Shown piece by piece: positions 16,688-28,016 of a stretch of DNA of 64,000 nt. Source of the stretch: Planktothrix tepida. Lineage in GTDB: Bacteria; Cyanobacteriota; Cyanobacteriia; Cyanobacteriales; Microcoleaceae. The notes beneath the pieces were generated by a model, which was not told the origin of the DNA, did not search any database, and saw only the letters and a list, made by a program, of their open reading frames with translations. The DNA lies in NCBI RefSeq assembly GCF_904830955.1, contig NZ_LR882970.1; one strand, given 5' to 3'. Made by a program: the position numbers and the translations under genes. Position 1 is the first letter of the stretch. Each line of letters opens with the position of its first letter.

Positions 16688-17845
16688 TCAATTCGGAGGT
16701 TCATCGTGGGTCGAAACAGAACGGAGGCGGCTTAATCGATTGGTTGCCCATTTAGCTAGTTCTTTAACTTCAGGATCAGGATCATCCATAGCTCGCTGTA
16801 AGATTTGATTCATTTGTGTTGCTAAATCATAAATTCGGGTTAAATCTCGAATAGCATTTTTTCTAACTTCGGCATTTTCATCTTGGAGAGACAAACTTAA
16901 GGCGCGGCTCAGGGGTTTTAACGTGCGAGTTCCAATTTCTGAGAGGGCAGCTAAAACTAAACTGCGTTGATTAGAATCAGAATAGATTAATAACTCTAAT
17001 AACGGTTGAATGGCTCTCGAATCTCCTGCTTGTGCCAGTTCCCAAATTGCATTACTTCTAATATCAGGACTGGTCTGTTTTAAATCATTAATCCATCGTT
17101 CCTGGGGATCAAGCCTCAGTCCATAGGAGGGTGGGTGAAGATTGACCGTATCCGTTACAGGGATATTCGCTCCTAGGGGGTTTTCAGAGGTCGTCGGTTG
17201 ATCGGATGGGGTATCGGGGGTAGAAACCTGTAATGTCGCGTCTCGATAACCATTCTGTTCTACAGGAGCCGGAGGCTGTGACCGTTGGAGAACGGTGGGA
17301 GAAACTTGCATCTGTCCCTGGGTAATGGCTTTAACCTGTACCGATGGTGGGGGAGATGGTATTTTTGGGGGTTCAGGGAGATTTTCTGGAACCGTTTGCG
17401 CCTCAATATCCACCACTGTACCTTCATCCTCATTAGGAGGACTGATCAGCCGAATTAAGATTAAAATGGCTCCGACCGTAATCACTAAAGCTCCTACCCC
17501 TAGGATTAACATCCGTGAGGGGAAGCGGAAAGATGATTTTTTAGGGGGCTGTTTTTGAGGCTTTTTGGCTGGTGGTTTTTCAGGGTTGCTTTGGGCAATT
17601 TGCCAGGATAAAGCAGAACGCTCTAAATCTGACCCAGCCGTGAGGGGTCGGGTAAAGAGATGGCTGTTTGTGTCTGTGAGATGTTGGGTTTCGTTCTCAA
17701 CCTTCGCAACCGCACTCCCACTGAAGCAGAACGTTCCACCACAGTAGGCAATACAAGCGAATACAAATAAGGTCAGGCGATAAAAAGGAGCCATGAGACT
17801 CAATTGAGTTTGTGATCGACGCTTAGTGGATATCAGGTAAAACAA
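16688..17845 (-). CDS. HEAT-repeat (PBS lyase-like) protein with N-terminal TM and Pro-rich linker
   Basis: The C-terminal half carries repeated ...VR..A..ALG.IG / DPDPEVKELAKWA motifs. Central Pro-rich region PEPPKIPSPPPS. Hydrophobic helix near residue 115. Confidence 0.55.
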   Translation of the reverse strand: MFYLISTKRRSQTQLSLMAPFYRLTLFVFACIAYCGGTFCFSGSAVAKVENETQHLTDTNSHLFTRPLTAGSDLERSALSWQIAQSNPEKPPAKKPQKQPPKKSSFRFPSRMLILGVGALVITVGAILILIRLISPPNEDEGTVVDIEAQTVPENLPEPPKIPSPPPSVQVKAITQGQMQVSPTVLQRSQPPAPVEQNGYRDATLQVSTPDTPSDQPTTSENPLGANIPVTDTVNLHPPSYGLRLDPQERWINDLKQTSPDIRSNAIWELAQAGDSRAIQPLLELLIYSDSNQRSLVLAALSEIGTRTLKPLSRALSLSLQDENAEVRKNAIRDLTRIYDLATQMNQILQRAMDDPDPEVKELAKWATNRLSRLRSVSTHDEPPN

Positions 17846-18031: not shown

Positions 18032-20941
18032 TTGAGGGTTGACTGTTGTTGGTGTGGGCGAGTCGCGCTGATGCACCCTACTCCTTGTCTCCTCCTTTCC
18101 TCTGTTCCCAACACCCTAAAAATAATGGGAGAATCTTTGTCCCCAGATCGTAAATTTATTACTACTGAACCCCTGTTTATGGCAGGAGAAAAAGCCGAAT
18201 CTCAAGTCTGGATGGCGATTTGTCAAAGCTTTGAGCCACGAGATTGTATTGCCTATTGGCGTTATCCGATTTTCTCAAAATTGGGAACCTTTCGGAAAGA
18301 ACCGGATATTTTAATCGTAGATGCAGAATTGGGATTAATTATTATTGAGGTGAAATCAATAACGATTGAGCAAATTCTGGGAATTACAGGTCATCGTTGG
18401 GAACTCCAAGAATTTTATACGACCCAGGCGAACCCCTATCAACAGGCAGAACATCAACTCTTTGCCCTACTGGACTATTGCAATTTAGAAGAGATTCTGC
18501 ATCAGAAGGTTCCGGGTCGTGTCCTCGTCGCCTTACCTCGCATTCTTCACTCTCAATGGCAATACCGGGGATTTGATCGGTTGCCGAGTTCTCCTCCTAT
18601 TCTATTTCAAGAGGATCTGGGGTTTAAGGGGGTCGAATCTTCGATCACAGCAAACACACCCTTTTTCTCGGAACCGTCACCTGTCAACGGTCAAGATTCC
18701 AGTTTAATTGAAAAAATTGAGAATGCACCGTTAGTCACGCGGGGAAGTGAACTTTCTGAGGAACAATGGGGACTGTTAAAGGCGGTCATTAGTGGAACAC
18801 CGTTATTTCGTCCACCGACTCGTCGCTTTTTTTTCAGCCAAACGGATGATTTAGAAACCGCTTTAACCCGCAGTGCGGTCTTAGCTATTGCTAGACAACG
18901 TATTTCTGAACTGGATTTACAACAGGAACAAATTGCCAAAGTGATCCCCCCAGGGCCACAACGAATTCGGGGAATTGCGGGTTCAGGAAAAACGGTGTTA
19001 CTGTGTCAAAAAGCAGCACAAATGCACCTGAAAAATCCTGAATGGGATATTGCGTTTGTATTTTTTAGTCGGAGTTTATATGATCCAATTTTACAACAAA
19101 TTGATCAATGGTTAAGGCGATTTAGTTGCAATCAAATCAGGTATGATCCCCAGAATTCTAAATTAAAAGTTCTTCATGCTTGGGGGGCAAAGGATCAACC
19201 CGGTTTTTATCGCACCATTTGTCAAGCTGCGGGAGTTTGGAGCCAAAGTGTTCAACAAACAACTCGTTCAAACGCGAATGAAGCCTTAGCAGAAGCTTGT
19301 TATCATTTATTAGCATCGGCAACGATTCCCGCTATTTTTGATGCTATTTTAATTGATGAAGGTCAGGATTTTATTGTTGAGGAAGATCTAAAATTTGAGG
19401 GAAAACAGCCCTTTTATTGGATGGCGTATCAAGCCTTACGTCCTGTTCATCGGGAAGAAGACAATAATTCTGAAATTCCTCAAAAACGCTTGATTTGGGC
19501 TTATGATGAAGTTCAAAGTTTAGAAAGTTTAAAAGTGCCGACGGCGAGTGAATTATTTGGAGATGAGTGGGGACAATTAGTTACGGGAGAATATGGCAAC
19601 GGAATTAAAAAAACAGAGATTATGTCTCGATGTTATCGGATTCCAGCCCCGATTTTAACGGCGGCTCATGGGATTGGTTTGGGGTTATTGCGTCCGCAAG
19701 GATTATTAACCGGAATGAAGTGGGCAGAAGATTGGGAAACGATGGGGTATAAAGTCATATTAACAAATTTGAAAGAACCAGAAAATGATCCCCACAATTC
19801 TCCTTTAAAATTGGGCGAAACGATTACCCTTTATCGTCCTGAACACAATTCACCTAATCCTGTATCAGCGTTATGGAAAAAACCTTTAATTGAATTTGAA
19901 GCTTATCGTTCTCGTTCCGAAGAATTAACCGCCTTAAGCGATCGCATTCTATATAACTTAAAAATTGATGGCTTGCGTCCCAGTCGAGAAATTTTAGTCA
20001 TTGTTTTAGGAATGGGATGGGAAGCGATAGAACTTGAAACCAAGATTGCTAACTTTTTAATGCAGCAAGGAATTGATATTTTTATCCCTGGAACACCGGA
20101 CTGTAATATTCTCAAACCGACTTCTAATAATGCCCATGCGAATCAATTTTGGTGTGAAGGCGGGGTAACTATTTCTCGTATTCATCGAGCGAAAGGACAT
20201 GAAGCTGATATGGTTTATTTGGTGGGTTTAGATCAAATTGCGGTTGCTGAAAATAATCTTAATTTCCGTAATCAATTATTTGTGGCGATGACTCGTTCAC
20301 GGGGTTGGCTGAGGTTAAGCGGTTTAGGTTCCTATCCTTTTTATGAAGAATTAGCACGAGTCATTGAAAGCGGAAATACTTTAACGTTTCGTTTACGGTT
20401 TCCCCCCCAACGGGATATTAGCATCACCGATGGCGGAGAACTGCTGCGAAGATATAAGAATGGCGATCGCAATTTTCAAGGCGCAAATCTATCCGCTCTC
20501 GATTTAACGGGGGTGAATTTAAGTCATGCTAATTTAATTGGAGCGAATCTTCAACAAACCAACCTCACCCATGCTAACTTAAATTACGCTAAATTAGTAG
20601 TGGCGAATTTAAGCCAAGCTAACATGACAGGTGCTAATCTACAGCGAGTCAAATGTGTTGGCACTAATTTACAACAGACTCGATTGAATTCTTGTGATTT
20701 GAGTCGTGCAGATCTCAGTCATGCTGATTTGAGTCAGGCGCAATTGGTTCGTGCTAATTTGAAGGATGCTAATTTGAGTGGGACAAATTTAACACAGGCT
20801 GATCTTTCCTATGCTACTCTTCAGGGTGCTGTTGTTAATGAGGCCAACGGCACAGAAGTAATCCTAACAGGGGCAATATTACCCGATGGTTGGATATTTG
20901 CAGGGGCTATCGGACGACCCTCACTGAATCAATTATCATGA
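18032..20941 (+). CDS. NERD domain / superfamily-1 (UvrD-like) helicase / pentapeptide-repeat fusion protein
   Basis: NERD-like N-terminus (PDILIVDAELGLIIIEVKS). Walker A GIAGSGKTVLL, Walker B ILIDEGQDF, and a UvrD motif VI-like TISRIHRAKGHEADMV. The C-terminal about 150 aa are tandem A(N/D)LSxA(N/D)LxxA pentapeptide repeats. The likely true start is the Met at 18125. Confidence 0.7.
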   Translation: MRVDCCWCGRVALMHPTPCLLLSSVPNTLKIMGESLSPDRKFITTEPLFMAGEKAESQVWMAICQSFEPRDCIAYWRYPIFSKLGTFRKEPDILIVDAELGLIIIEVKSITIEQILGITGHRWELQEFYTTQANPYQQAEHQLFALLDYCNLEEILHQKVPGRVLVALPRILHSQWQYRGFDRLPSSPPILFQEDLGFKGVESSITANTPFFSEPSPVNGQDSSLIEKIENAPLVTRGSELSEEQWGLLKAVISGTPLFRPPTRRFFFSQTDDLETALTRSAVLAIARQRISELDLQQEQIAKVIPPGPQRIRGIAGSGKTVLLCQKAAQMHLKNPEWDIAFVFFSRSLYDPILQQIDQWLRRFSCNQIRYDPQNSKLKVLHAWGAKDQPGFYRTICQAAGVWSQSVQQTTRSNANEALAEACYHLLASATIPAIFDAILIDEGQDFIVEEDLKFEGKQPFYWMAYQALRPVHREEDNNSEIPQKRLIWAYDEVQSLESLKVPTASELFGDEWGQLVTGEYGNGIKKTEIMSRCYRIPAPILTAAHGIGLGLLRPQGLLTGMKWAEDWETMGYKVILTNLKEPENDPHNSPLKLGETITLYRPEHNSPNPVSALWKKPLIEFEAYRSRSEELTALSDRILYNLKIDGLRPSREILVIVLGMGWEAIELETKIANFLMQQGIDIFIPGTPDCNILKPTSNNAHANQFWCEGGVTISRIHRAKGHEADMVYLVGLDQIAVAENNLNFRNQLFVAMTRSRGWLRLSGLGSYPFYEELARVIESGNTLTFRLRFPPQRDISITDGGELLRRYKNGDRNFQGANLSALDLTGVNLSHANLIGANLQQTNLTHANLNYAKLVVANLSQANMTGANLQRVKCVGTNLQQTRLNSCDLSRADLSHADLSQAQLVRANLKDANLSGTNLTQADLSYATLQGAVVNEANGTEVILTGAILPDGWIFAGAIGRPSLNQLS

Positions 20942-21135: not shown

Positions 21136-24100
21136 ATGATCACTTTACCTGGCTATCAGATTCTTAACCCGATCTATAATGGTTCGAGAACACTGGTTTA
21201 TCGTGGGATTCGTTTGTCTGATGGTTACCCGGTTGTGATTAAACTATTACGCAGTGAATATCCAACCGTACCCTCTTTGATTGAATTTAGAAATCAATAT
21301 CGCATTGCCAAAGCTCTTAATATATCCGGTATTGTTCCGATTCTGGATTTGGAACCCTATTGTAATGGGTTTGCCTTGATTATGGCTGATCAAGGCTATA
21401 TTTCACTAGCCGATTATTTAGTACAGCGAGAACTAACCTTAAGTGAATTATTAAAAATTGCCATTGAAATTACTCAAATTTTAGAACAATTGTATCAACA
21501 TCGGGTGATTCATAAAGATGTTAAACTGCAAAATATTTTAATTCACCCGGAAACTTTGAAAGTTCAACTGATTGATTTTAGTATTTCTATTCAACTGAAT
21601 CATTCCCATCAAGAAGTTGTTAATTCTCAAGGATTAGAAGGAACTTTAGCTTATATGTCTCCCGAACAAACCGGACGAACCCATCGGGGTATTGATTATC
21701 GCACAGATTTGTATTCTTTAGGCGTAACACTTTATCAATTATTAACTCGAAAACTTCCGTTTCCATCTTCTGATCCCCTAGAATTAATTCATGCTCATTT
21801 AGCCCTGCTTCCTCAGCCTTTAAGCGAAATTAAACCGACCTTACCGATAATGCTCAATAATATTATTTTAAAATTGATGGCTAAAAATCCAGAGGAGCGT
21901 TATCAAACTCCATTAGGACTGCGCTATGATTTAGAAAATTGTTTAGAACAATGGGAAAAACTGGGGGATATTCCTCCGTTTCCTTTGGCGACGATTGACT
22001 TAAATGATCGATTTATTATTCCCAATAAATTTTATGGACGAGAGCCAGAAATTGAGCGTTTAAATTCGATTGTGAACACGGCTCAATCAGAAATTATTGT
22101 AATTACAGGTCAATCAGGAATTGGCAAGTCTTCCCTGGTTCAAGAATTCTATCAAACCGTTGCATATTGTGGAACAGGAGTTTTGCCTATAACTCATTGT
22201 GTCACCTTAGACAGTTATTTTATCACAGGCAAATTTGATCAATTTAAAACGAATACGCCTTTTTGGGGATGGGTACAAGGGATTAAACAATTAATTCAAC
22301 AAGTATTAACTGAACCTTTGGAACAGGTAGAAGCTTGGAAAAAGAAACTTTTAAATGGACTCGGAGATCAAGCCCCGGTTTTAATGGCTGTTATTCCTGA
22401 ACTGAAAGTTTTATTAAATCAACAGTCTTCCCTGACTGAATCAGAGGTTAATCTTGACCTGAATCAATTTAATCGTTTAATTCAAAAGCTAATTCAAACT
22501 TTTGCCAAACCTCATCATCCCTTAGTCATTTTTTTAGATGATTTACAATGGGCAGATGTTGAATCCTTACGATTAATTCAGGTTTTGATGAGTCCTGAAC
22601 AAAATATTTATTCTACACCTCCAACCTTAGTGCTAATTTTAGCGTATCGGGATGACGAGATCGGGGAAACACATCCTTTAATTAAAATCTTAGAAACCTT
22701 AGAAAATTCAGGAATTCCCTTACATCGAATTCCTTTAAATGCTTTAGAAGATTCTGCGATTAATCAACTAATAGCAGAAACATTAGTTTGTTCCTTAGAC
22801 CGGGCTAAACCTTTGGCAGAATTAGTCAGTCAAAAAACTCAAGGAAATCCTTTTTTTGTTCGTCAATTTCTACAAACCTTATATACAGAAGAACTAATTT
22901 GGTTTAATCCGCCTCAATCTTCCTTAAAAAATCGAAATTTATTCGGAGGTTGGCAATGTAATTTAACTCAAATTAAAACCCGTTCGATTAACTCTAATAT
23001 TTTAGATTTAATTCTTCATCAATTACAACAATTACCTCCAGACACCCAAGAAATTTTAAAAATTGCGGCTTGTTTAGGAAATCAATTTAATGCCGTAGAT
23101 TTAGCTACCGTAACTGAAAAAACTTATTTAGAAACATTAAAAGCTTTAGAAATTGCTTTACAGGCTCAATTTATTGTTATTGCTAGAGATATTTATCCCT
23201 TTTATTCCTTAGAAACTGAAGTATTTTCCCCTCCACACTTTGATCCAAATGAAACCTTACCGTTGTTACAGCCCGGTATTGATAAATACCAATTTATTCA
23301 TGACCGAGTTCAACAAGCTGCTTATCTTTTAATTCCAACTCATCAACGACAAGCGACTCATTTAAAAATCGGAAATTCGCTTTTAAATCAAATCAAAAAA
23401 CAATATTTTAATCAATCCATTAAGATTATTTTACATATAATTTCAACCGAAGTTTTATTAAATATCATTAATCAACTCAATTTAGGAGTAGGCTTAATTC
23501 AGGATCAAAAAGAACGAGATCAATTAGCCTTATTTAATTTAATAGCCGGACAAAAAGCGAAAATTGCCACCGCCTATCCGACAGCTATTGGACATTTAGC
23601 GATTGGTCTGGGGTTATTGGTAACGGAGAGTTGGGAACGAGACTATCAATTAACATTAGAATTATACACAGAAGCAGCAGAAATTGCTTATCTCAGCCAA
23701 GATTGGGAAAATTTACACAAGTGGGGAAATATTGTTTTAGAAAATGTTAAAATATTCGGGCATAAAGTAAGAATTTATGAATTAATGATTCAAGCTTATA
23801 GGAGCCAAAATCAAGATCACAATGCGGTCAATCTTGCGTTAGCTGTTTGTCAACAATTAGGGTTCACCTGGGGTGATAATTTTAGTGAAGAAAGTTGGCA
23901 GGAATTCAAGCATAATTTTATTAAAAATTTAGGGGGAAGAACACCCTTAGCATTATTAGATTTACCCGAATTATCTAATACTAATTTAGTAAATTTATTT
24001 AGAATTTTAACCTCTGCTTTTCCTTCTGCTTATCGGGTAATTCCCAAACAATTCCCATTTTGGGTTTTAAAACTGGTTCATTTATCCTATCAACAAGGAA

Positions 24101-27100
24101 ATACAACGTTATCAAGTTTTGTCTATGCTGTATTTGGATTTATTCTTTGTACGCAAGGGGAAATTGAGTTCGGAAATCAAATGGGAGAATTAGCTTTAGA
24201 ATTATCGCAAAAACAAGCAAATTTTGCAATAATTATCAAAGTTAAACAACTGGTTTATCGGTTTATTAAACCTTGGAAAACTTCCTTAAAGCAGATTTTA
24301 TCTCCTCTCAAAACTTGCTATTTACAAGCTCAAGAAGCCGGGAGAATTGATGAAGCTTATTGTCTTGCTCAAGCTTATCTTGAAATCGCTTATTTCACGG
24401 GAAACGATGTCTCTGAATTGGAGCTTGAATTGAGTCGGTGTTTAAATCAGTTACAAAATTTTAAATCTCCGTCAGAACTATTAATTTTTACAACCTATCA
24501 TCAAAGCTTGCAAATTTTAAATGGAAAATTAGAGGGAGACACCTCATTAAATTTTACGGGTCATGCTGAAAACGGGACAATAGGAACGACTGAAATTGGA
24601 TATTCTTCCCAGGAAATTCCTTTTGAACTTAGTTTAAATTTCATGGTTCTGAATTATAGATTAGATAGATTACAACAGGCGAAGGAATGGTCTCAGCAAG
24701 CTGAATGCTATTTAAACAAAGACACCTATTTTGTTTTACAACCGTTTTTTTATTGTTATCAATCTTTAATTGATTTAGCAATCTACCCGGAGTTATCGTC
24801 AGAAGACCAAGTTAAAATTTCAGAAAAAGTAACTCAAAACCAAGAAAAATTAAAAGCTTTTTCTCAGGGGACTCCGATGAACTTTTCCCATCTATTTTAT
24901 TTGGTGGAGGCAGAATTTAACCACATTCAAGGAGATTATATTAAAGCCATTGAAGCTTATGAACAAGCGATTATGCTGGCTAAAACCTATCAGTTTATTC
25001 AGGAAGAAGCTTTAGCAGAGGAATTAGCGGCTAAATTTTATTTAGATTGGGGAAAAGAAAAAATTGCCAGGGTTTATTTAATTGATGCTTATTATAGTTA
25101 TGCTCATTGGGGTGCTTTTGCCAAAGTGAAGGATTTAGAATCTCGTTATCCTCAACTTTTAAATTCTATTTTAGCACAACTTGTTATTCCCACAACAGGA
25201 ACAACAATCAGTAATAATACGACAGAAACCATTATTTCTAGTAGTCATGGAGGTTCGGCTGCTCTCGATTTAGCAACGGTGACAAAAGCTTCTCAAGCTT
25301 TATCTCAAGAAATCGATTTAGAACAACTCTTGAAACGATTAATTCAAGTGGTGATTGAAAACGCAGGAGCCGAAAAATGTTGTATTCTTTTATCTAAATC
25401 GGGAAAATTAGCGATAGAAGCAATAGCCAGTTTAAATCCGATTAACGGAGGGTCTATTGAGATTGAATCCTTATTAAAATCTGTTTCTGTAGAGCAAAGT
25501 AATGCCTTACCTTTATTGATTCTGAATACCGTGATTCAAACCCAAGAGTTTATGATTTTAGCAGATGCTCGTCAAGAATCTCGGTATCGTAATGATCCTT
25601 ATTTAATAGAACATCAATCCAAATCAATCCTCATGACTCCCATTCAAAATCGGGGGAAATTGATTGGAATTCTGTACCTTGAAAATAACTTAGCAACCGC
25701 AGTGTTTACTCCAGAACGATTAGAAGTCCTCAAAATTCTGTTTTCTCAAGCCGCGATTTCCATTGACAATGCTAAACTTTATTCTCAAGTTCGCAATAAT
25801 GAACAACAGATGACGCAATTCTTAGAAGGAATTCCGGTTGGCGTTGCTGTTTTAGACCCTACGGGTAAACCCTATTTTACCAATCAAAAAGCTCAACAAT
25901 TGCTCAAAACTAAAGTCACTCCTGGATTATTTTGTGAAGCTTTATCTAATATTTATCAAGCTTATCTCAATTGGTGTCAACAGCATCAATTTGATCAATT
26001 AACACCTTATTGTGATTTATATAATCCTACACCCGATACCACGTTTATTTTAGAAGTGAATCAGGGAGAACAAACGATATTGCTTGAAAATTGGGTGACA
26101 CCGACTTATGATGAAGAGGGGGATTTAATGTATGCGATTCTAGCGTTCCAAGATATAACAAAACGTCAGCAAACAGAACTGGCTTTAAGGCAAGCTGAAG
26201 AAAAATATCGCAGTATATTTGAAAATGCCAGTGAAGGCTTATTTCAAACCACCAGGGAGGGGCATTATATCAGTGCAAATCCTGCCTTGGCGAAGATTTT
26301 AGGTTATGATTCTCCCTGGGATTTAATGTCAACGGTGAGGAATGTTGAAGAACAAATTTATGTAGATTCTCAACGCCGATTAGATTTTATACAATTAATT
26401 GATCAACAAGGGGAAGTTTCAGGATTTGAATTTAAAGCCTACCGCAAAGATGGCAGCATTATTTGGATTTCAGAAAATGCACGGGCTGTCTTTAATGATA
26501 AAAATGAATTACTTTATTATGAAGGGTTTGTCGTTGATATTACAGAACGAAAAACTGCCGAAGAAGAACGCTTACAATTTATGGCAAAACTTTCAGAATT
26601 GAATCATCATTTAGATGAAGCGTTAGATTCGGAATTTGAACTGACGGATGCAGCGGCGCGATTTGTTCCCCATGAATTTTTATCTTTTTTAGGTTATGAA
26701 AGTATTGTGGAAGTTCAGTTAGGGGCAGCAGTTCAAAAAGAAATGTCGATTTTATTTGCTGATATTCGGGATTTTACCAGTCTTTCTGAAGATATGACTC
26801 CTGAAGATAATTTTAAATTTATTAATGCGTTTTTAAGCCGTATGGAACCTGCCATCGTCGAAAATTATGGTTTTATTGATAAATATATTGGGGATGAAAT
26901 TATGGCATTATTTGGCGGGTCTGCTGATGATGCAGTTCGGGCTGGGATTTCAATGATTAGCCGACTGAATGAGTATAATGAAACCCGACAACGCCCCGAA
27001 CGTCCTCCGATTAAAATTGGGATTGGTATTAATACCGGAGGATTAATGTTAGGAATTGTGGGGGGTAAAAATCGACTGGATAGTACGGTTATTAGTGATT

Positions 27101-27462
27101 CGGTCAATGTCGCTTCTCGCATTGAGAATTTAACAAAAAATTATGGGGTGTCTTTATTAATTACCCATCCCACTTTTATGGCTTTAGAAAATGCCAACGA
27201 GTATGCAATTCGGATTATTGATCGAGTCAAAGTCAAAGGAAAATCCGATGCGGTAACGGTATATGAAGTATTTGATTCAGATTTGCCGGAAATAAAAGCT
27301 GGAAAACTTCGGACAAAAACCACCTTTGAATATGGATTAATGCAATATTATTTAGAACGTTACTCAGAGGCTGCCAGATTATTCCAAGAATGCCTACATC
27401 ACCTCCCTATGGATAAAGTTGCTCAAATTTATTTAGAACGCTGTTTATCTAAAATGTTCTAA
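21136..27462 (+). CDS. multidomain signalling protein: Ser/Thr kinase-like domain, AAA_16 (STAND) ATPase, TPR-like helical region, GAF, PAS, class III adenylate/guanylate cyclase
   Basis: Kinase subdomains VVIKLL, HKDVKLQNILI, DFS, SPEQ. The P-loop is GQSGIGKSS and the Walker B is FLDDLQWAD. GAF region around LEQLLKRLIQVV..ILYLEN. PAS around EEKYRSIFENASEGLF. Cyclase motifs FADIRDFTSL, KYIGDEIMALFG, IGINTGGLMLGIVGG, SVNVASRIE. Confidence 0.8.
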   Translation: MITLPGYQILNPIYNGSRTLVYRGIRLSDGYPVVIKLLRSEYPTVPSLIEFRNQYRIAKALNISGIVPILDLEPYCNGFALIMADQGYISLADYLVQRELTLSELLKIAIEITQILEQLYQHRVIHKDVKLQNILIHPETLKVQLIDFSISIQLNHSHQEVVNSQGLEGTLAYMSPEQTGRTHRGIDYRTDLYSLGVTLYQLLTRKLPFPSSDPLELIHAHLALLPQPLSEIKPTLPIMLNNIILKLMAKNPEERYQTPLGLRYDLENCLEQWEKLGDIPPFPLATIDLNDRFIIPNKFYGREPEIERLNSIVNTAQSEIIVITGQSGIGKSSLVQEFYQTVAYCGTGVLPITHCVTLDSYFITGKFDQFKTNTPFWGWVQGIKQLIQQVLTEPLEQVEAWKKKLLNGLGDQAPVLMAVIPELKVLLNQQSSLTESEVNLDLNQFNRLIQKLIQTFAKPHHPLVIFLDDLQWADVESLRLIQVLMSPEQNIYSTPPTLVLILAYRDDEIGETHPLIKILETLENSGIPLHRIPLNALEDSAINQLIAETLVCSLDRAKPLAELVSQKTQGNPFFVRQFLQTLYTEELIWFNPPQSSLKNRNLFGGWQCNLTQIKTRSINSNILDLILHQLQQLPPDTQEILKIAACLGNQFNAVDLATVTEKTYLETLKALEIALQAQFIVIARDIYPFYSLETEVFSPPHFDPNETLPLLQPGIDKYQFIHDRVQQAAYLLIPTHQRQATHLKIGNSLLNQIKKQYFNQSIKIILHIISTEVLLNIINQLNLGVGLIQDQKERDQLALFNLIAGQKAKIATAYPTAIGHLAIGLGLLVTESWERDYQLTLELYTEAAEIAYLSQDWENLHKWGNIVLENVKIFGHKVRIYELMIQAYRSQNQDHNAVNLALAVCQQLGFTWGDNFSEESWQEFKHNFIKNLGGRTPLALLDLPELSNTNLVNLFRILTSAFPSAYRVIPKQFPFWVLKLVHLSYQQGNTTLSSFVYAVFGFILCTQGEIEFGNQMGELALELSQKQANFAIIIKVKQLVYRFIKPWKTSLKQILSPLKTCYLQAQEAGRIDEAYCLAQAYLEIAYFTGNDVSELELELSRCLNQLQNFKSPSELLIFTTYHQSLQILNGKLEGDTSLNFTGHAENGTIGTTEIGYSSQEIPFELSLNFMVLNYRLDRLQQAKEWSQQAECYLNKDTYFVLQPFFYCYQSLIDLAIYPELSSEDQVKISEKVTQNQEKLKAFSQGTPMNFSHLFYLVEAEFNHIQGDYIKAIEAYEQAIMLAKTYQFIQEEALAEELAAKFYLDWGKEKIARVYLIDAYYSYAHWGAFAKVKDLESRYPQLLNSILAQLVIPTTGTTISNNTTETIISSSHGGSAALDLATVTKASQALSQEIDLEQLLKRLIQVVIENAGAEKCCILLSKSGKLAIEAIASLNPINGGSIEIESLLKSVSVEQSNALPLLILNTVIQTQEFMILADARQESRYRNDPYLIEHQSKSILMTPIQNRGKLIGILYLENNLATAVFTPERLEVLKILFSQAAISIDNAKLYSQVRNNEQQMTQFLEGIPVGVAVLDPTGKPYFTNQKAQQLLKTKVTPGLFCEALSNIYQAYLNWCQQHQFDQLTPYCDLYNPTPDTTFILEVNQGEQTILLENWVTPTYDEEGDLMYAILAFQDITKRQQTELALRQAEEKYRSIFENASEGLFQTTREGHYISANPALAKILGYDSPWDLMSTVRNVEEQIYVDSQRRLDFIQLIDQQGEVSGFEFKAYRKDGSIIWISENARAVFNDKNELLYYEGFVVDITERKTAEEERLQFMAKLSELNHHLDEALDSEFELTDAAARFVPHEFLSFLGYESIVEVQLGAAVQKEMSILFADIRDFTSLSEDMTPEDNFKFINAFLSRMEPAIVENYGFIDKYIGDEIMALFGGSADDAVRAGISMISRLNEYNETRQRPERPPIKIGIGINTGGLMLGIVGGKNRLDSTVISDSVNVASRIENLTKNYGVSLLITHPTFMALENANEYAIRIIDRVKVKGKSDAVTVYEVFDSDLPEIKAGKLRTKTTFEYGLMQYYLERYSEAARLFQECLHHLPMDKVAQIYLERCLSKMF

Positions 27463-27476
27463 GTCTTTGATATGAT

Positions 27477-28016
27477 TTGAACAATCCTTTGTGTGTTGAA
27501 CGATTACCCAGTATGAGCGATCTGTATATTTCAGCGACGGAATACCACCACAAAATTGAAACCTTAGCCGTAAAAATTTATCAGTCTCAATGGCAATTTA
27601 ATCAAATTGTCTGTTTAGCGAGGGGAGGGTTACGAGTCGGGGATATTCTTTCTCGGATTTTTGAACAACCGATGGCGATTTTAGCGACATCATCTTATCA
27701 TGGGCTAGGGGGAAAAGTTCGAGGCGCGATCAAAATTGCTGAACACTTAACTATGACCACAGACACCTTGGGAAGTCACGTTTTATTAGTGGATGATTTA
27801 GTCGATTCTGGGATTAGTTTACAAGAATCTATCCGGTGGTTGAAATCCCGTTATCCTCAAATCCAAGAGATGAAAACGGCTGTTCTCTGGTATAAAAGTT
27901 GTTCAGTAATGGCTCCCGATTATTTTGTGGATTATCTGGCGGATAACCCTTGGATTCATCAACCCTTTGAATGTTATGAAAACATGAATTTAGCCGAGTT
28001 GGAACAGCCGGGTTAA
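27477..28016 (+). CDS. gpt: xanthine-guanine phosphoribosyltransferase-like (type I PRTase)
   Basis: ARGGLRVG..ILATSSYH..VLLVDDLVDSGISL..PWIHQPFE is colinear with the E. coli Gpt PRPP-binding and hood regions as I recall them. It starts 15 bp after the megaprotein stop. Confidence 0.65.
   Translation: MNNPLCVERLPSMSDLYISATEYHHKIETLAVKIYQSQWQFNQIVCLARGGLRVGDILSRIFEQPMAILATSSYHGLGGKVRGAIKIAEHLTMTTDTLGSHVLLVDDLVDSGISLQESIRWLKSRYPQIQEMKTAVLWYKSCSVMAPDYFVDYLADNPWIHQPFECYENMNLAELEQPG

What the first reader, a model, noticed from the sequence alone, without database searches (positions are those of the whole stretch)
21136..28016. 2108-aa kinase-STAND-GAF-PAS-nucleotide cyclase megaprotein with atypical kinase motifs, followed by a Gpt-like PRTase
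The domain order is Ser/Thr-kinase-like, AAA_16 (P-loop GQSGIGKSS, Walker B FLDDLQWAD), helical repeats, GAF, PAS, then a class III cyclase (FADIRDFT, KYIGDEIMALFG, SVNVASRIE). It resembles the PknK/MalT-type STAND proteins of actinomycetes and the HstK family of cyanobacteria, but with a cyclase rather than a histidine-kinase output. The kinase has HKD instead of HRD, DFS instead of DFG, and a degenerate Gly loop, so it may be a pseudokinase scaffold. The cyclase retains the Lys of the K..GD motif and the N...R transition-state pair. Its purine versus pyrimidine specificity (compare Pycsar cCMP/cUMP cyclases) cannot be read off reliably. A Gpt-like purine phosphoribosyltransferase starts 15 bp downstream, likely co-transcribed. 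That is an odd pairing of a nucleotide-second-messenger enzyme with a purine salvage enzyme.
Basis: partly seen in the sequence, partly recalled or inferred. Interest (0 to 1): 0.5.

Follow-up and report, generated by a model that had tools for sequence, protein, structure and literature searches.

The report
Kinase-STAND sensor adenylyl cyclase gene
This is a giant cyanobacterial signalling protein that joins a kinase-like domain, an ATP-driven switch module, small-molecule sensor domains and an ordinary cAMP-making enzyme; it belongs to a very large family catalogued since 2007-2010, and the phosphoribosyltransferase gene next to it is a neighbour only in one genus, not a conserved partner.

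Summary
The 2108-aa ORF (21136..27462, +) is real. Its domain order and every quoted motif check out: Ser/Thr kinase, AAA_16 STAND NTPase, TPR-like solenoid, GAF, two PAS domains, signalling helix, class III cyclase, short helical tail.

It is not new. The same architecture was described for Arthrospira NIES39_A07100 in 2010 ([quoted passage not shown]) and listed for Trichodesmium Tery_2857 in 2007. The scaffold has thousands of relatives.

The cyclase specificity can be read. Both metal Asp, Lys, Thr, Asn and Arg are all present, and all except Thr (82/85) are invariant in 85 homologs. That makes it a canonical class IIIb (Lys/Thr) adenylyl cyclase, not a Pycsar or guanylyl type.

The unusual kinase motifs are lineage-wide. 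HKD is shared across the sampled family; DFS and Gln at the alpha-C position define this protein's lineage. No homolog has GxGxxG. The three residues that define an active kinase are invariant, so "pseudokinase" is not supported, though activity is untested.

The PRTase starts at ATG 27513, 50 bp downstream rather than 15. It falls below NCBIfam's cut-offs for its Hpt and xanthine-PRTase models. The megaprotein lies upstream of it only in Planktothrix-clade loci; more distant orthologous loci and 73 other cyanobacterial PRTase loci lack the pairing.

Verdict: an ordinary, uncharacterised member of a known family. Low interest.

The parts
21136..27462 (+). Whole 2108-aa kinase-STAND-GAF-PAS-PAS-adenylyl cyclase gene
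   Evidence: ORF list and translation. 76-96% identical full-length orthologs in Planktothrix-group genomes.
21157..21906 (+). Ser/Thr protein-kinase domain (aa 8-257). Beta3 Lys36, HKD Asp128, Asn133, DFS Asp147 and SPE are present. The Gly loop is reduced to one Gly, and Gln54 sits at the alpha-C Glu position.
   Evidence: Pfam Pkinase 1.8e-30. Alignment to PknB 3f69, 6e-31. Motif census over 116 homologs.
22027..22605 (+). STAND P-loop NTPase core (AAA_16, aa 298-490). Walker A is G325-Q-S-G-I-G-K331; Walker B is D468-D469.
   Evidence: Pfam AAA_16 2.2e-31. Walker residues invariant in 32 sequences. Alpha/beta core in the AlphaFold model.
22606..23337 (+). Helical and winged-helix-like part of the nucleotide-binding oligomerisation module (aa 491-734)
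   Evidence: AlphaFold model, pLDDT 79.6. Foldseek hits to STAND PH0952 (6mfv) and to Cdc6/Orc1.
23338..25182 (+). Long TPR-like alpha-solenoid, the putative STAND sensor arm (aa 735-1349)
   Evidence: About 30 consecutive helices in the model. Foldseek hits to 6mfv and TPR proteins. Pfam TPR_2 trace at 1264-1284. Together with aa 491-734, this stretch finds 6,743 cluster representatives at E<=1e-30.
25315..25764 (+). GAF domain (aa 1394-1543), ligand unknown
   Evidence: Pfam GAF 8e-16. Only weak matches to solved GAFs. By my own reading of the translation, there is no cNMP-type NKFDE motif and no bilin-type motif.
25822..26169 (+). First PAS domain (aa 1563-1678)
   Evidence: Pfam PAS_4, weak at 2e-7. 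The same family is precomputed on most homologs.
26200..26541 (+). Second PAS domain (aa 1689-1802)
   Evidence: Pfam PAS 1e-10 and TIGR00229 2.5e-25. PAS fold in the model.
26542..26694 (+). 39-residue signalling helix (aa 1803-1841) followed by a conserved RFVPxxFLxxL element (aa 1842-1853) that leads into the cyclase
   Evidence: Helices at fragment residues 124-162 and 167-172 in the model. F, V, P, F, L and L are invariant and R nearly so in 27 sequences. The whole module resembles sensor-helix-cyclase enzymes such as OaPAC, bPAC, 6fht and sGC.
26737..27258 (+). Class IIIb adenylyl cyclase catalytic domain (aa 1868-2041): D1876, K1916, D1920, R1980, T1984, N1991, R1995
   Evidence: Pfam Guanylate_cyc 2.2e-18. 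Alignments to CyaB 3r5g at 7e-24 and to Cya2 2w01. Residue census over 85 homologs. Foldseek TM-score 0.75 to 3r5g.
27286..27456 (+). C-terminal three-helix TPR-like tail (aa 2051-2107)
   Evidence: Helices at fragment residues 372-393, 397-410 and 415-428 with pLDDT above 94. Conserved in homologs.
27513..28016 (+). Neighbouring 167-aa type I phosphoribosyltransferase. It is not part of the signalling protein's conserved system; the real start is ATG 27513.
   Evidence: Pfam Pribosyltran 1.4e-28. Identical to WP_072719433.1. Start-codon conservation. Linkage survey.

Best explanation
The gene encodes a cytoplasmic, multi-input signalling adenylyl cyclase of the cyanobacterial HstK-like kinase-STAND family. 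In this family one conserved scaffold (N-terminal Ser/Thr kinase domain, AAA_16 STAND NTPase, TPR-like solenoid, GAF) carries interchangeable C-terminal outputs: histidine kinase, PP2C phosphatase, GGDEF or class III cyclase. Here the output is a canonical homodimeric class IIIb (Lys/Thr) adenylyl cyclase that makes cAMP from ATP.

Proposed mechanism, all inferred:
- Signals sensed by the TPR arm, GAF and two PAS domains change the nucleotide state or oligomeric state of the STAND module.
- Those signals also change the register of the PAS-to-cyclase signalling helix and its conserved RFVPxxFLxxL element.
- This sets the geometry of the cyclase dimer and hence cAMP output.
- The kinase domain keeps all residues needed to bind Mg-ATP and transfer phosphate. 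It most likely auto-phosphorylates or phosphorylates a partner as a second output or as a feedback input.

Shown here: the domain identities, the catalytic residues, the family relationships and the gene neighbourhoods. Not shown: ligands, kinase activity, oligomerisation and co-transcription.

The downstream phosphoribosyltransferase is a separately conserved cyanobacterial enzyme. It sits beside this gene through genus-level synteny, not through a functional coupling.
For: Domains.

Cyclase:
- Sequence alignment to P. aeruginosa CyaB (7e-24), photoactivated adenylyl cyclases and Spirulina CyaC.
- Lys1916 and Thr1984 sit where the guanylyl cyclase Cya2 has Glu and Gly.
- D, K, D, N and R are invariant in 85/85 homologs, the gamma-phosphate Arg in 84/85 and Thr in 82/85.
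- The predicted PAS-helix-cyclase module matches OaPAC, bPAC, the phytochrome-cyclase fusion 6fht, sGC, CyaB (TM-score 0.75) and CyaC.

STAND module:
- Walker A and Walker B are invariant.
- The model (pLDDT 79.6) has PH0952 STAND-TPR 6mfv as its best PDB hit (E 1.2e-9), followed by Cdc6/Orc1 and TPR proteins.

Family:
- 85 of the best 120 homologs share Pkinase-AAA_16-GAF-(PAS)-Guanylate_cyc. Siblings carry HisKA/HATPase or SpoIIE outputs, and one carries GGDEF.
- 6,743 cluster representatives match the scaffold-specific helical region at E<=1e-30.
- The architecture is published: PMC2853384 and PMC2176072.

Kinase:
- Lys36, Asp128, Asn133 and Asp147 are invariant in 116 homologs.
- HKD is found in 113/116, and the Limnospira/Lyngbya orthologs have HRD.

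PRTase linkage:
- The megaprotein is upstream of the PRTase only in L001 and L005-L011, all Planktothrix clade.
- The 42-43% identical orthologs in L002, L003 and L085 keep the upstream HEAT and helicase-pentapeptide genes but have no PRTase downstream.
- L020, L024 and L033 have helicase-pentapeptide followed directly by the PRTase, with no megaprotein.
- The other 70 PRTase loci (68-77% identical PRTase) show no megaprotein within up to 8 kb.
- The spacer is 149-248 bp in three Planktothrix-clade loci, and heptamer repeats fill it in two of them.
Against: - No member of the cyclase-output branch has been characterised biochemically in any paper I could find, so cAMP synthesis and kinase activity rest on residue conservation.
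- The kinase lacks a canonical Gly-rich loop. In this lineage it also has Gln at the alpha-C Glu position and DFS for DFG, which could reduce or abolish phosphotransfer.
- The ligands of the TPR, GAF and PAS modules are unknown.
- The megaprotein and PRTase are on the same strand, 50 bp apart, with no predicted terminator between them. Co-transcription in Planktothrix is therefore not excluded.
Confidence: 0.8

Rival explanations
1. The kinase-like domain is catalytically dead. It would act only as an ATP-binding or scaffolding regulatory module for the cyclase, analogous to the kinase-homology domain of animal receptor guanylyl cyclases.
For: No GxGxxG loop in any of 116 homologs. Gln replaces the alpha-C Glu and DFS replaces DFG throughout this lineage (50 of 116). 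The sister lineage has Asn in place of the catalytic-loop Lys.
Against: The three residues whose loss defines a pseudokinase (beta3 Lys, catalytic Asp, DFx Asp), plus the catalytic-loop Asn and the SPE motif, are invariant across 116 homologs (definition from PMC13519141). HKD to HRD is a conservative change and is reversed in orthologs. The second Gly of the loop is kept in this lineage.
Confidence: 0.25
2. The megaprotein and the PRTase form a functional operon. It would couple cyclic-nucleotide signalling to purine salvage, for example through supply or sensing of purine nucleotides.
For: Same strand, 50-bp spacer, no predicted terminator in the spacer. The adjacency is kept in 8 Planktothrix-clade loci.
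Against: The adjacency is absent from the orthologous loci L002, L003 and L085, which still share the upstream synteny. The PRTase is 68-77% conserved in 73 other cyanobacterial loci with no such neighbour, and in three genomes it follows the helicase-pentapeptide gene directly. Paralog loci lack it. The spacer expands to 149-248 bp in some Planktothrix loci. The PRTase does not reach the cut-offs of NCBIfam's Hpt and xanthine-PRTase models.
Confidence: 0.06
3. It is an anti-phage or NLR-like defence cyclase, either Pycsar-like (making cCMP or cUMP) or a STAND immune sensor. The upstream NERD-like helicase might belong to the same system.
For: STAND architecture. PADLOC hits to kinase defence models (PD-T4-6, mad6) and to PycC at 56 bits. 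The upstream gene hits the PADLOC 'Helicase' model at 8.6e-78.
Against: The PADLOC hits are generic domain-level matches. PycC at 56 bits scores below Pfam's generic cyclase model at 67 bits. The specificity residues are the adenylyl-cyclase Lys/Thr pair. No cNMP-activated effector gene is adjacent. The scaffold has thousands of diverged relatives. GAF and PAS inputs and swappable HK, PP2C and GGDEF outputs are typical of housekeeping signal transduction.
Confidence: 0.04
4. The cyclase domain makes cGMP, or is a dual-specificity enzyme, rather than making cAMP.
For: The Pfam family covers both enzyme types. The guanylyl cyclase Cya2 (2w01) is among the best sequence and fold matches.
Against: Lys1916 and Thr1984 align with Glu and Gly of Cya2 and match the adenylyl cyclase CyaB. 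Lys is invariant in 85/85 homologs.
Confidence: 0.05

Closest known systems
Arthrospira platensis NIES39_A07100 (Fujisawa et al. 2010, PMC2853384) and Trichodesmium Tery_2857 (Zhang et al. 2007, PMC2176072)
   Same: Same architecture: N-terminal Ser/Thr kinase, GAF, PAS, C-terminal adenylate cyclase. The paper explicitly describes it as HstK-like with the histidine kinase replaced by a cyclase. Limnospira-type homologs (P0015, P0016) are 42-43% identical over 100% of the length. The P0015 loci and the Lyngbya P0017 locus share the upstream HEAT and helicase-pentapeptide synteny.
   Different: Those papers did not mention the AAA_16/STAND-TPR module. The Limnospira/Lyngbya orthologs have HRD where Planktothrix has HKD, and they lack the PRTase neighbour. 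I did not retrieve the NIES39_A07100 or Tery_2857 sequences themselves, so identity with P0015/P0016 is inferred from taxonomy and architecture. None has been characterised experimentally.
HstK family / cbSTKIII 'dual protein kinases' of filamentous cyanobacteria
   Same: The N-terminal kinase has the same signature (xxGSRTxVY loop, alpha-C Gln, HKDxKxxN, DFS), and the AAA_16, helical region and GAF are shared. 33 of the 49 sampled homologs with this kinase signature lack a cyclase and carry other outputs such as HisKA/HATPase or SpoIIE.
   Different: No HisKA or HATPase_c domain. The output is a class III cyclase reached through two PAS domains and a signalling helix.
STAND NTPases with TPR sensor arms (PH0952, PDB 6mfv; the MalT and PknK type)
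   Same: P-loop NTPase with invariant Walker A and B, a helical/winged-helix module and a long TPR-like solenoid. 6mfv is the best fold match. From my own knowledge, PknK also has an N-terminal Ser/Thr kinase.
   Different: Adds GAF, PAS, PAS and cyclase after the solenoid. TM-score to 6mfv is only about 0.5. MalT and PknK themselves were not compared directly.
Class IIIb soluble adenylyl cyclases with sensor-helix-cyclase layout (P. aeruginosa CyaB 3r5g, Spirulina CyaC 1wc0, OaPAC 4yus, bPAC 5m2a, phytochrome-cyclase 6fht)
   Same: Catalytic fold and the full residue set with the Lys/Thr specificity pair. A sensor domain joins the cyclase through a long helix. In sAC-like enzymes the Thr is thought to predict bicarbonate regulation (PMC3383692).
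   Different: About 1,800 extra N-terminal residues (kinase, STAND, TPR, GAF, PAS) and a three-helix C-terminal tail.
Animal receptor guanylyl cyclases (kinase-homology domain, then coiled coil, then cyclase)
   Same: A kinase-fold domain and a class III cyclase in one polypeptide. The cyclase domain of NPR-A is a detectable sequence match (9bcv, 6.7e-9).
   Different: This is analogy only. Here the kinase domain keeps its catalytic Asp, about 1,600 residues separate it from the cyclase, and the product is predicted to be cAMP.
Pycsar pyrimidine cyclases (PycC)
   Same: Class III cyclase fold, with a domain-level PADLOC hit of 56 bits.
   Different: It has purine (adenine) specificity residues, no adjacent effector gene, and a far larger multi-sensor architecture.

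Membership tests
Class III nucleotidyl cyclase, subclass IIIb adenylyl cyclase | Two metal-binding Asp residues | tested here: met
   D1876 (FADIRDFT) and D1920 (KYIGD) align with those of CyaB 3r5g. Both are invariant in 85/85 homologs.
Class III nucleotidyl cyclase, subclass IIIb adenylyl cyclase | Adenine-specifying Lys, with Thr in place of the class IIIa Asp at the second specificity position | tested here: met
   K1916 and T1984 match CyaB. The guanylyl cyclase Cya2 (2w01) has Glu and Gly at these columns. Lys is found in 85/85 and Thr in 82/85 homologs. The subclass definition comes from established knowledge (Linder and Schultz classification); the Thr is also noted in PMC3383692.
Class III nucleotidyl cyclase, subclass IIIb adenylyl cyclase | Transition-state Asn and Arg | tested here: met
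   N1991 and R1995 in VNVASR are invariant in 85/85 homologs.
Class III nucleotidyl cyclase, subclass IIIb adenylyl cyclase | Makes cAMP from ATP as a head-to-tail homodimer | not testable with these tools
   Needs an enzyme assay and an oligomer analysis.
STAND NTPase | P-loop NTPase with Walker A GxxGxGK[ST] and Walker B hhhhDD | tested here: met
   GQSGIGKS at aa 325 and FLDD at aa 466. Pfam AAA_16 2.2e-31. Invariant in 32 sequences.
STAND NTPase | Helical and winged-helix domains after the NTPase, followed by a repeat-type sensor arm | tested here: met
   AlphaFold model with pLDDT 79.6. The best PDB match is STAND-TPR PH0952 6mfv (E 1.2e-9, TM-score 0.51), followed by Cdc6/Orc1 and TPR proteins.
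STAND NTPase | Nucleotide-dependent oligomerisation switch | not testable with these tools
   Needs biochemistry.
HstK family / cbSTKIII dual protein kinases | N-terminal Ser/Thr kinase domain followed by at least one GAF domain | tested here: met
   The kinase signature is shared with homologs that lack a cyclase and carry other outputs such as HisKA/HATPase. Definition from PMC2176072.
HstK family / cbSTKIII dual protein kinases | C-terminal HisKA and HATPase_c histidine kinase | tested here: not met
   No HisKA or HATPase_c hit in Pfam. A Guanylate_cyc domain is present instead.
Active eukaryotic-like Ser/Thr protein kinase (as opposed to pseudokinase) | Beta3 Lys, catalytic-loop Asp and DFG Asp all present | tested here: met
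   K36, D128 and D147 are invariant in 116/116 homologs. Definition from PMC13519141.
Active eukaryotic-like Ser/Thr protein kinase (as opposed to pseudokinase) | Canonical GxGxxG loop and alpha-C Glu forming the Lys-Glu pair | tested here: not met
   The loop is YNGSRTLV, with one Gly. Gln54 aligns with PknB Glu59. This is lineage-wide.
Active eukaryotic-like Ser/Thr protein kinase (as opposed to pseudokinase) | Phosphotransfer activity | not testable with these tools
   Needs an in vitro kinase assay.
Pycsar cyclase (PycC) | Pyrimidine-specific cyclase encoded next to a cNMP-activated effector gene | tested here: not met
   Only a generic 56-bit PADLOC hit. Adenine-type Lys/Thr residues. The neighbours are a PRTase, a pterin dehydratase and a GAF-HD-GYP protein.
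TOMM system kinase/cyclase fusion (TIGR03903) | Whole-protein score above the curated cut-off | tested here: not met
   71.9 bits against a cut-off of 705.75, and only the AAA_16 region matches.
NCBIfam Hpt (HGPRTase) and xanthine-PRTase purine phosphoribosyltransferase models, for the downstream gene | Score above the NCBIfam equivalog cut-off | tested here: not met
   HGPRTase 49.8 bits against 150. Xanthine PRTase 46.1 against 138. Sources name it only 'phosphoribosyltransferase family protein'.
Type I phosphoribosyltransferase fold, for the downstream gene | Pribosyltran domain with the acidic PRPP-binding loop | tested here: met
   Pfam 1.4e-28. The VLLVDDLVDSG motif is in the translation. 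The best solved relative is Sulfolobus purine PRTase GpT-1, 4trb.

The most novel reading that the evidence does not exclude
The STAND module may work like an NLR. Ligand binding to the TPR, GAF or PAS sensors plus ATP exchange would drive oligomerisation, bringing the obligately dimeric cyclase domains together (induced-proximity activation of cAMP synthesis). In this reading the atypical kinase domain (no Gly-rich loop, alpha-C Gln, DFS) would act mainly as an ATP-sensing regulatory module. That would make it a bacterial counterpart of the kinase-homology domain of animal receptor guanylyl cyclases. My evidence neither shows nor excludes this.
Probability: 0.2. Interest if true: 0.5.

Novelty: new member of a known kind. 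Interest (0 to 1): 0.15.

Why it matters
It matters little beyond annotation. The result gives a more exact label for a gene that genome records call 'AAA family ATPase' or 'multi-sensor signal transduction multi-kinase': an HstK-like kinase-STAND protein with a class IIIb adenylyl cyclase output. It also removes a tempting but unsupported link between cyclic-nucleotide signalling and purine salvage.

The wider family has thousands of diverged members with swappable outputs, and I found no published biochemical characterisation of it. Whether its conserved but atypical kinase domain is active remains a fair open question. That question concerns the whole family, not this locus.

Tried and rejected
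- PADLOC scan for defence-system membership. It returned only generic kinase, cyclase and helicase domain hits, so a defence reading was rejected.
- TIGR03903 'TOMM kinase/cyclase fusion'. The score is far below the cut-off. One paralog (P0013) does sit beside a YcaO cluster, but the window gene does not.
- Search for a cNMP-binding or bilin-binding GAF. There are only weak generic GAF matches in the PDB, so the ligand is left unknown.
- Promoter and terminator scans of the region. Promoter-like sites were no more frequent than in shuffled sequence, and terminator-like sites only slightly more (about 1 sd). None lies in the 50-bp spacer, so the scan does not settle co-transcription.
- Literature search for biochemical work on kinase-STAND-cyclase or HstK kinase activity. 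Nothing relevant was found, and the original HstK paper (PMC1222267) is not held.
- The idea that the GAF-HD-GYP gene two genes downstream is a cognate phosphodiesterase. Rejected because it has HD-GYP motifs, which from my own knowledge mark c-di-GMP-type enzymes, and it is syntenic only in the Planktothrix clade.
- The helicase-pentapeptide gene as an obligatory partner. Rejected because three genomes keep it next to the PRTase without the megaprotein.

Full report
**Observation**

The window holds an uninterrupted ORF at 21136..27462 (+) of 2108 aa. Pfam and NCBIfam place these domains:
- Pkinase, aa 8-257
- AAA_16, aa 298-490
- a TPR trace near aa 1264
- GAF, aa 1394-1543
- a weak PAS_4, aa 1563-1678
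- PAS, aa 1689-1802
- Guanylate_cyc, aa 1868-2041

Full-length genes 76-96% identical occur in other Planktothrix-group genomes. The downstream PRTase is 100% identical to a Planktothrix tepida PCC 9214 protein. The window is therefore from that organism or a very close relative, and the gene is a conserved one.

**The downstream gene**

- Across 11 related loci, conservation begins exactly at Met-Ser-Asp-Leu. Several relatives have in-frame stops just upstream of it.
- The 167-aa product from ATG 27513 is the annotated protein.
- The spacer is 50 bp, with no predicted terminator in it.
- The protein is a clear type I phosphoribosyltransferase (Pfam 1.4e-28). It falls far below the NCBIfam cut-offs for HGPRTase (49.8 against 150) and xanthine PRTase (46.1 against 138).
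- Its best solved relative is a Sulfolobus purine PRTase at 3.9e-9.

'Purine-PRTase-like, specificity unknown' is the defensible label.

**The cyclase**

Its best sequence matches are all soluble bacterial cyclases:
- P. aeruginosa CyaB (3r5g, 7e-24)
- Synechocystis Cya2 (2w01)
- the photoactivated cyclases OaPAC and bPAC
- Spirulina CyaC

The printed alignments show both metal Asp residues (D1876, D1920), the gamma-phosphate Arg (R1980) and the transition-state Asn and Arg (N1991, R1995). The specificity pair is Lys1916/Thr1984. This pair is identical to CyaB. It contrasts with Glu and Gly at the same columns of the guanylyl cyclase Cya2.

Lys with Thr (instead of Asp) is the hallmark of class IIIb adenylyl cyclases (established classification). 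The Thr is also cited as predictive of bicarbonate regulation in sAC-like enzymes (PMC3383692).

Across 85 homologs, D, K, D, N and R are invariant, the gamma-phosphate Arg is found in 84/85 and Thr in 82/85. The specificity can therefore be read: this is an ordinary adenylyl cyclase.

PADLOC's PycC models hit at only 56 bits, less than Pfam's generic model, and no effector gene is adjacent. Pycsar membership fails.

**The C-terminal module**

An AlphaFold model of aa 1680-2108 (pLDDT 81.3) shows, in order:
- a PAS fold
- a 39-residue helix
- a short helix over an RFVPxxFLxxL element whose F, V, P, F, L and L are invariant and whose R is nearly so in 27 sequences
- the cyclase fold
- a confident three-helix tail

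Foldseek matches it to sensor-helix-cyclase enzymes: OaPAC, bPAC, the phytochrome-cyclase fusion 6fht and soluble guanylyl cyclase. It also matches the isolated catalytic domains of CyaB and CyaC with TM-score about 0.75. This is the familiar way class III cyclase dimers are controlled by N-terminal sensors through a helical linker.

**The STAND module**

Walker A (GxSGxGK) and Walker B (DD) are invariant in 32 sequences. An AlphaFold model of aa 280-1390 (pLDDT 79.6, pTM 0.72) has an alpha/beta NTPase core, a helical and winged-helix-like region, and about 600 residues of alpha-solenoid. Its best PDB match is the archaeal STAND-TPR protein PH0952 (6mfv, E 1.2e-9, TM-score 0.51), followed by Cdc6/Orc1 and many TPR proteins.

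**The kinase**

Aligned to PknB (6e-31), it keeps:
- the beta3 Lys (K36)
- the catalytic-loop Asp, Lys and Asn (HKDVKLQN)
- the Mg-binding Asp (DFS)
- the SPE motif

It has only one Gly in the Gly-rich loop, and Gln where PknB has the alpha-C Glu.

A census of 116 homologs shows these are lineage traits, not decay.
- HKD is found in 113/116. The Limnospira/Lyngbya orthologs have HRD.
- No canonical GxGxxG loop occurs in any homolog.
- There are two lineages. One has DFS, alpha-C Gln and HKDxK (about 50 sequences, including this protein); its members carry cyclase, histidine-kinase or PP2C outputs. The other has DFG, alpha-C Glu and HKDxN (about 66 sequences); all sampled members carry cyclase outputs.
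- K36, D128, N133 and D147 are invariant in all 116.

By the standard sequence definition, a pseudokinase lacks the VAIK Lys, the HRD Asp or the DFG Asp (PMC13519141). By that definition this is not a pseudokinase. Whether it transfers phosphate is untested. I put about 0.25 on it being catalytically inactive.

**Family and prior knowledge**

- The best 120 homologs are all 1,650-2,180-aa cyanobacterial proteins with Pkinase-AAA_16-GAF. 85 of them end in a class III cyclase; the others end in HisKA/HATPase or SpoIIE. A GGDEF-output member lies next to a cyclase paralog in Phormidium ambiguum.
- The scaffold-specific helical region alone (aa 491-1349) finds 6,743 50%-identity cluster representatives at E<=1e-30. 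The best 150 are mostly aligned end to end.
- The architecture is in the literature. Zhang et al. 2007 list Tery_2857 as an STK with 'GAF, CYCc' that clusters with the dual kinases (PMC2176072).
- Fujisawa et al. [quoted passage not shown]
- I found no biochemical study of the cyclase-output branch.

**The PRTase pairing**

I fetched 80 genome loci around PRTase orthologs (68-88% identical). I also fetched the loci of several megaprotein homologs. I then searched all of them with the window's seven neighbouring proteins.

| Loci | Arrangement |
|---|---|
| L001, L005-L011 (Planktothrix clade) | Megaprotein directly upstream of the PRTase |
| L002, L003 (Limnospira-like), L085 (Lyngbya CCY1209); 42-43% identical, full-length orthologs | Keep the upstream HEAT-repeat and helicase-pentapeptide genes; followed by an opposite-strand polysaccharide-synthesis gene, no PRTase |
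| L020 (Capilliphycus), L024, L033 (Lyngbya) | HEAT, helicase-pentapeptide, then PRTase, with no megaprotein |
| The other 70 PRTase loci (Microcoleus, Nostoc, Anabaena, Trichodesmium, Okeania and others) | No megaprotein-like sequence within up to 8 kb |
| Paralog loci L004, L086, L087 | No PRTase |

Even within the Planktothrix clade the spacer grows to 149-248 bp in three loci, and heptamer repeats fill it in two of them.

The simplest reading is an old synteny block (HEAT, helicase-pentapeptide, megaprotein, PRTase) that has been differentially eroded. It is not an operon-level functional pairing. Co-transcription in Planktothrix itself is possible but unshown.

**How it most likely works**

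Shown: the domain identities, the catalytic residues, the family relationships and the gene neighbourhoods.

Inferred:
- The protein integrates inputs through the TPR arm, GAF and two PAS domains.
- The STAND NTPase acts as a nucleotide-dependent conformational or oligomerisation switch.
- The PAS-proximal signalling helix and the conserved RFVP element set the geometry of a homodimeric class IIIb cyclase, which makes cAMP.
- The kinase domain provides a second output or a feedback input.
- Bicarbonate or CO2 responsiveness is possible, given the Thr.

**Verdict**

The HstK-like family call and the atypical kinase motifs are right. The claims of unreadable cyclase specificity and an 'odd pairing' with a Gpt-like enzyme are not supported. 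This is a new member of a known, catalogued but biochemically unstudied family. Interest is low.

Noticed in passing
window 30686..33304 (-): An 872-aa protein with the full Major Vault Protein architecture (Vault repeats, Vault_2, Vault_3, Vault_4 and the MVP shoulder). It is 90% identical in a related Oscillatoriales MAG (L008). Bacterial, including cyanobacterial, MVP homologs have already been reported (bioRxiv 10.1101/872010).
   Followed up: partly
window 18032..20941 (+): A 969-aa fusion of a weak NERD-like N-terminus, an SF1/UvrD-type helicase and a C-terminal pentapeptide-repeat domain. The PADLOC 'Helicase' model PDLC03002 hits at 8.6e-78. It is conserved together with the divergent HEAT-repeat gene (16688..17845, -) in Planktothrix, Limnospira-like, Lyngbya and Capilliphycus loci. 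Function unknown.
   Followed up: partly
window 28917..30560 (+): A 547-aa GAF plus HD-GYP protein, with HDFGK and HHEKLDGTGYP motifs and a long insertion between the two halves of the HD domain. It is syntenic with the megaprotein only in the Planktothrix clade.
   Followed up: partly
window 28534..28815 (+): Pterin-4a-carbinolamine dehydratase (Pfam 6.6e-29; above the NCBIfam cut-off). It lies between the PRTase and the GAF-HD-GYP gene, 517 bp after the PRTase.
   Followed up: no
homologs P0001-P0120 (kinase domains): The kinase-STAND scaffold splits into two conserved kinase signatures. One has DFS, alpha-C Gln and HKDxK, with mixed outputs. The other has DFG, alpha-C Glu and HKDxN, with Asn replacing the catalytic-loop Lys, and only cyclase outputs in this sample. 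Neither has a GxGxxG loop.
   Followed up: partly
L004 12103..17781: A Trichormus variabilis paralog (P0013) sits immediately upstream of a RiPP-type cluster with NHase-alpha-like leader peptides, YcaO and a ThcOx-type oxidase. This recalls NCBIfam's 'TOMM system kinase/cyclase fusion protein' family.
   Followed up: no
L086 3768..14551: In Phormidium ambiguum IAM M-71, a cyclase-output family member is followed 138 bp later by a Pkinase-AAA_16-GAF-GGDEF member. The pair forms a tandem with cAMP and c-di-GMP outputs.
   Followed up: no
L005 7753..8000; L006 7795..8000; L010 5786..5837: In some Planktothrix-clade genomes the megaprotein-PRTase spacer is filled with tandem heptanucleotide repeats (GAATTAC, GGGTAAT, CTGATAA types), expanding it from about 50 to 206-248 bp in L005 and L006.
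   Followed up: no
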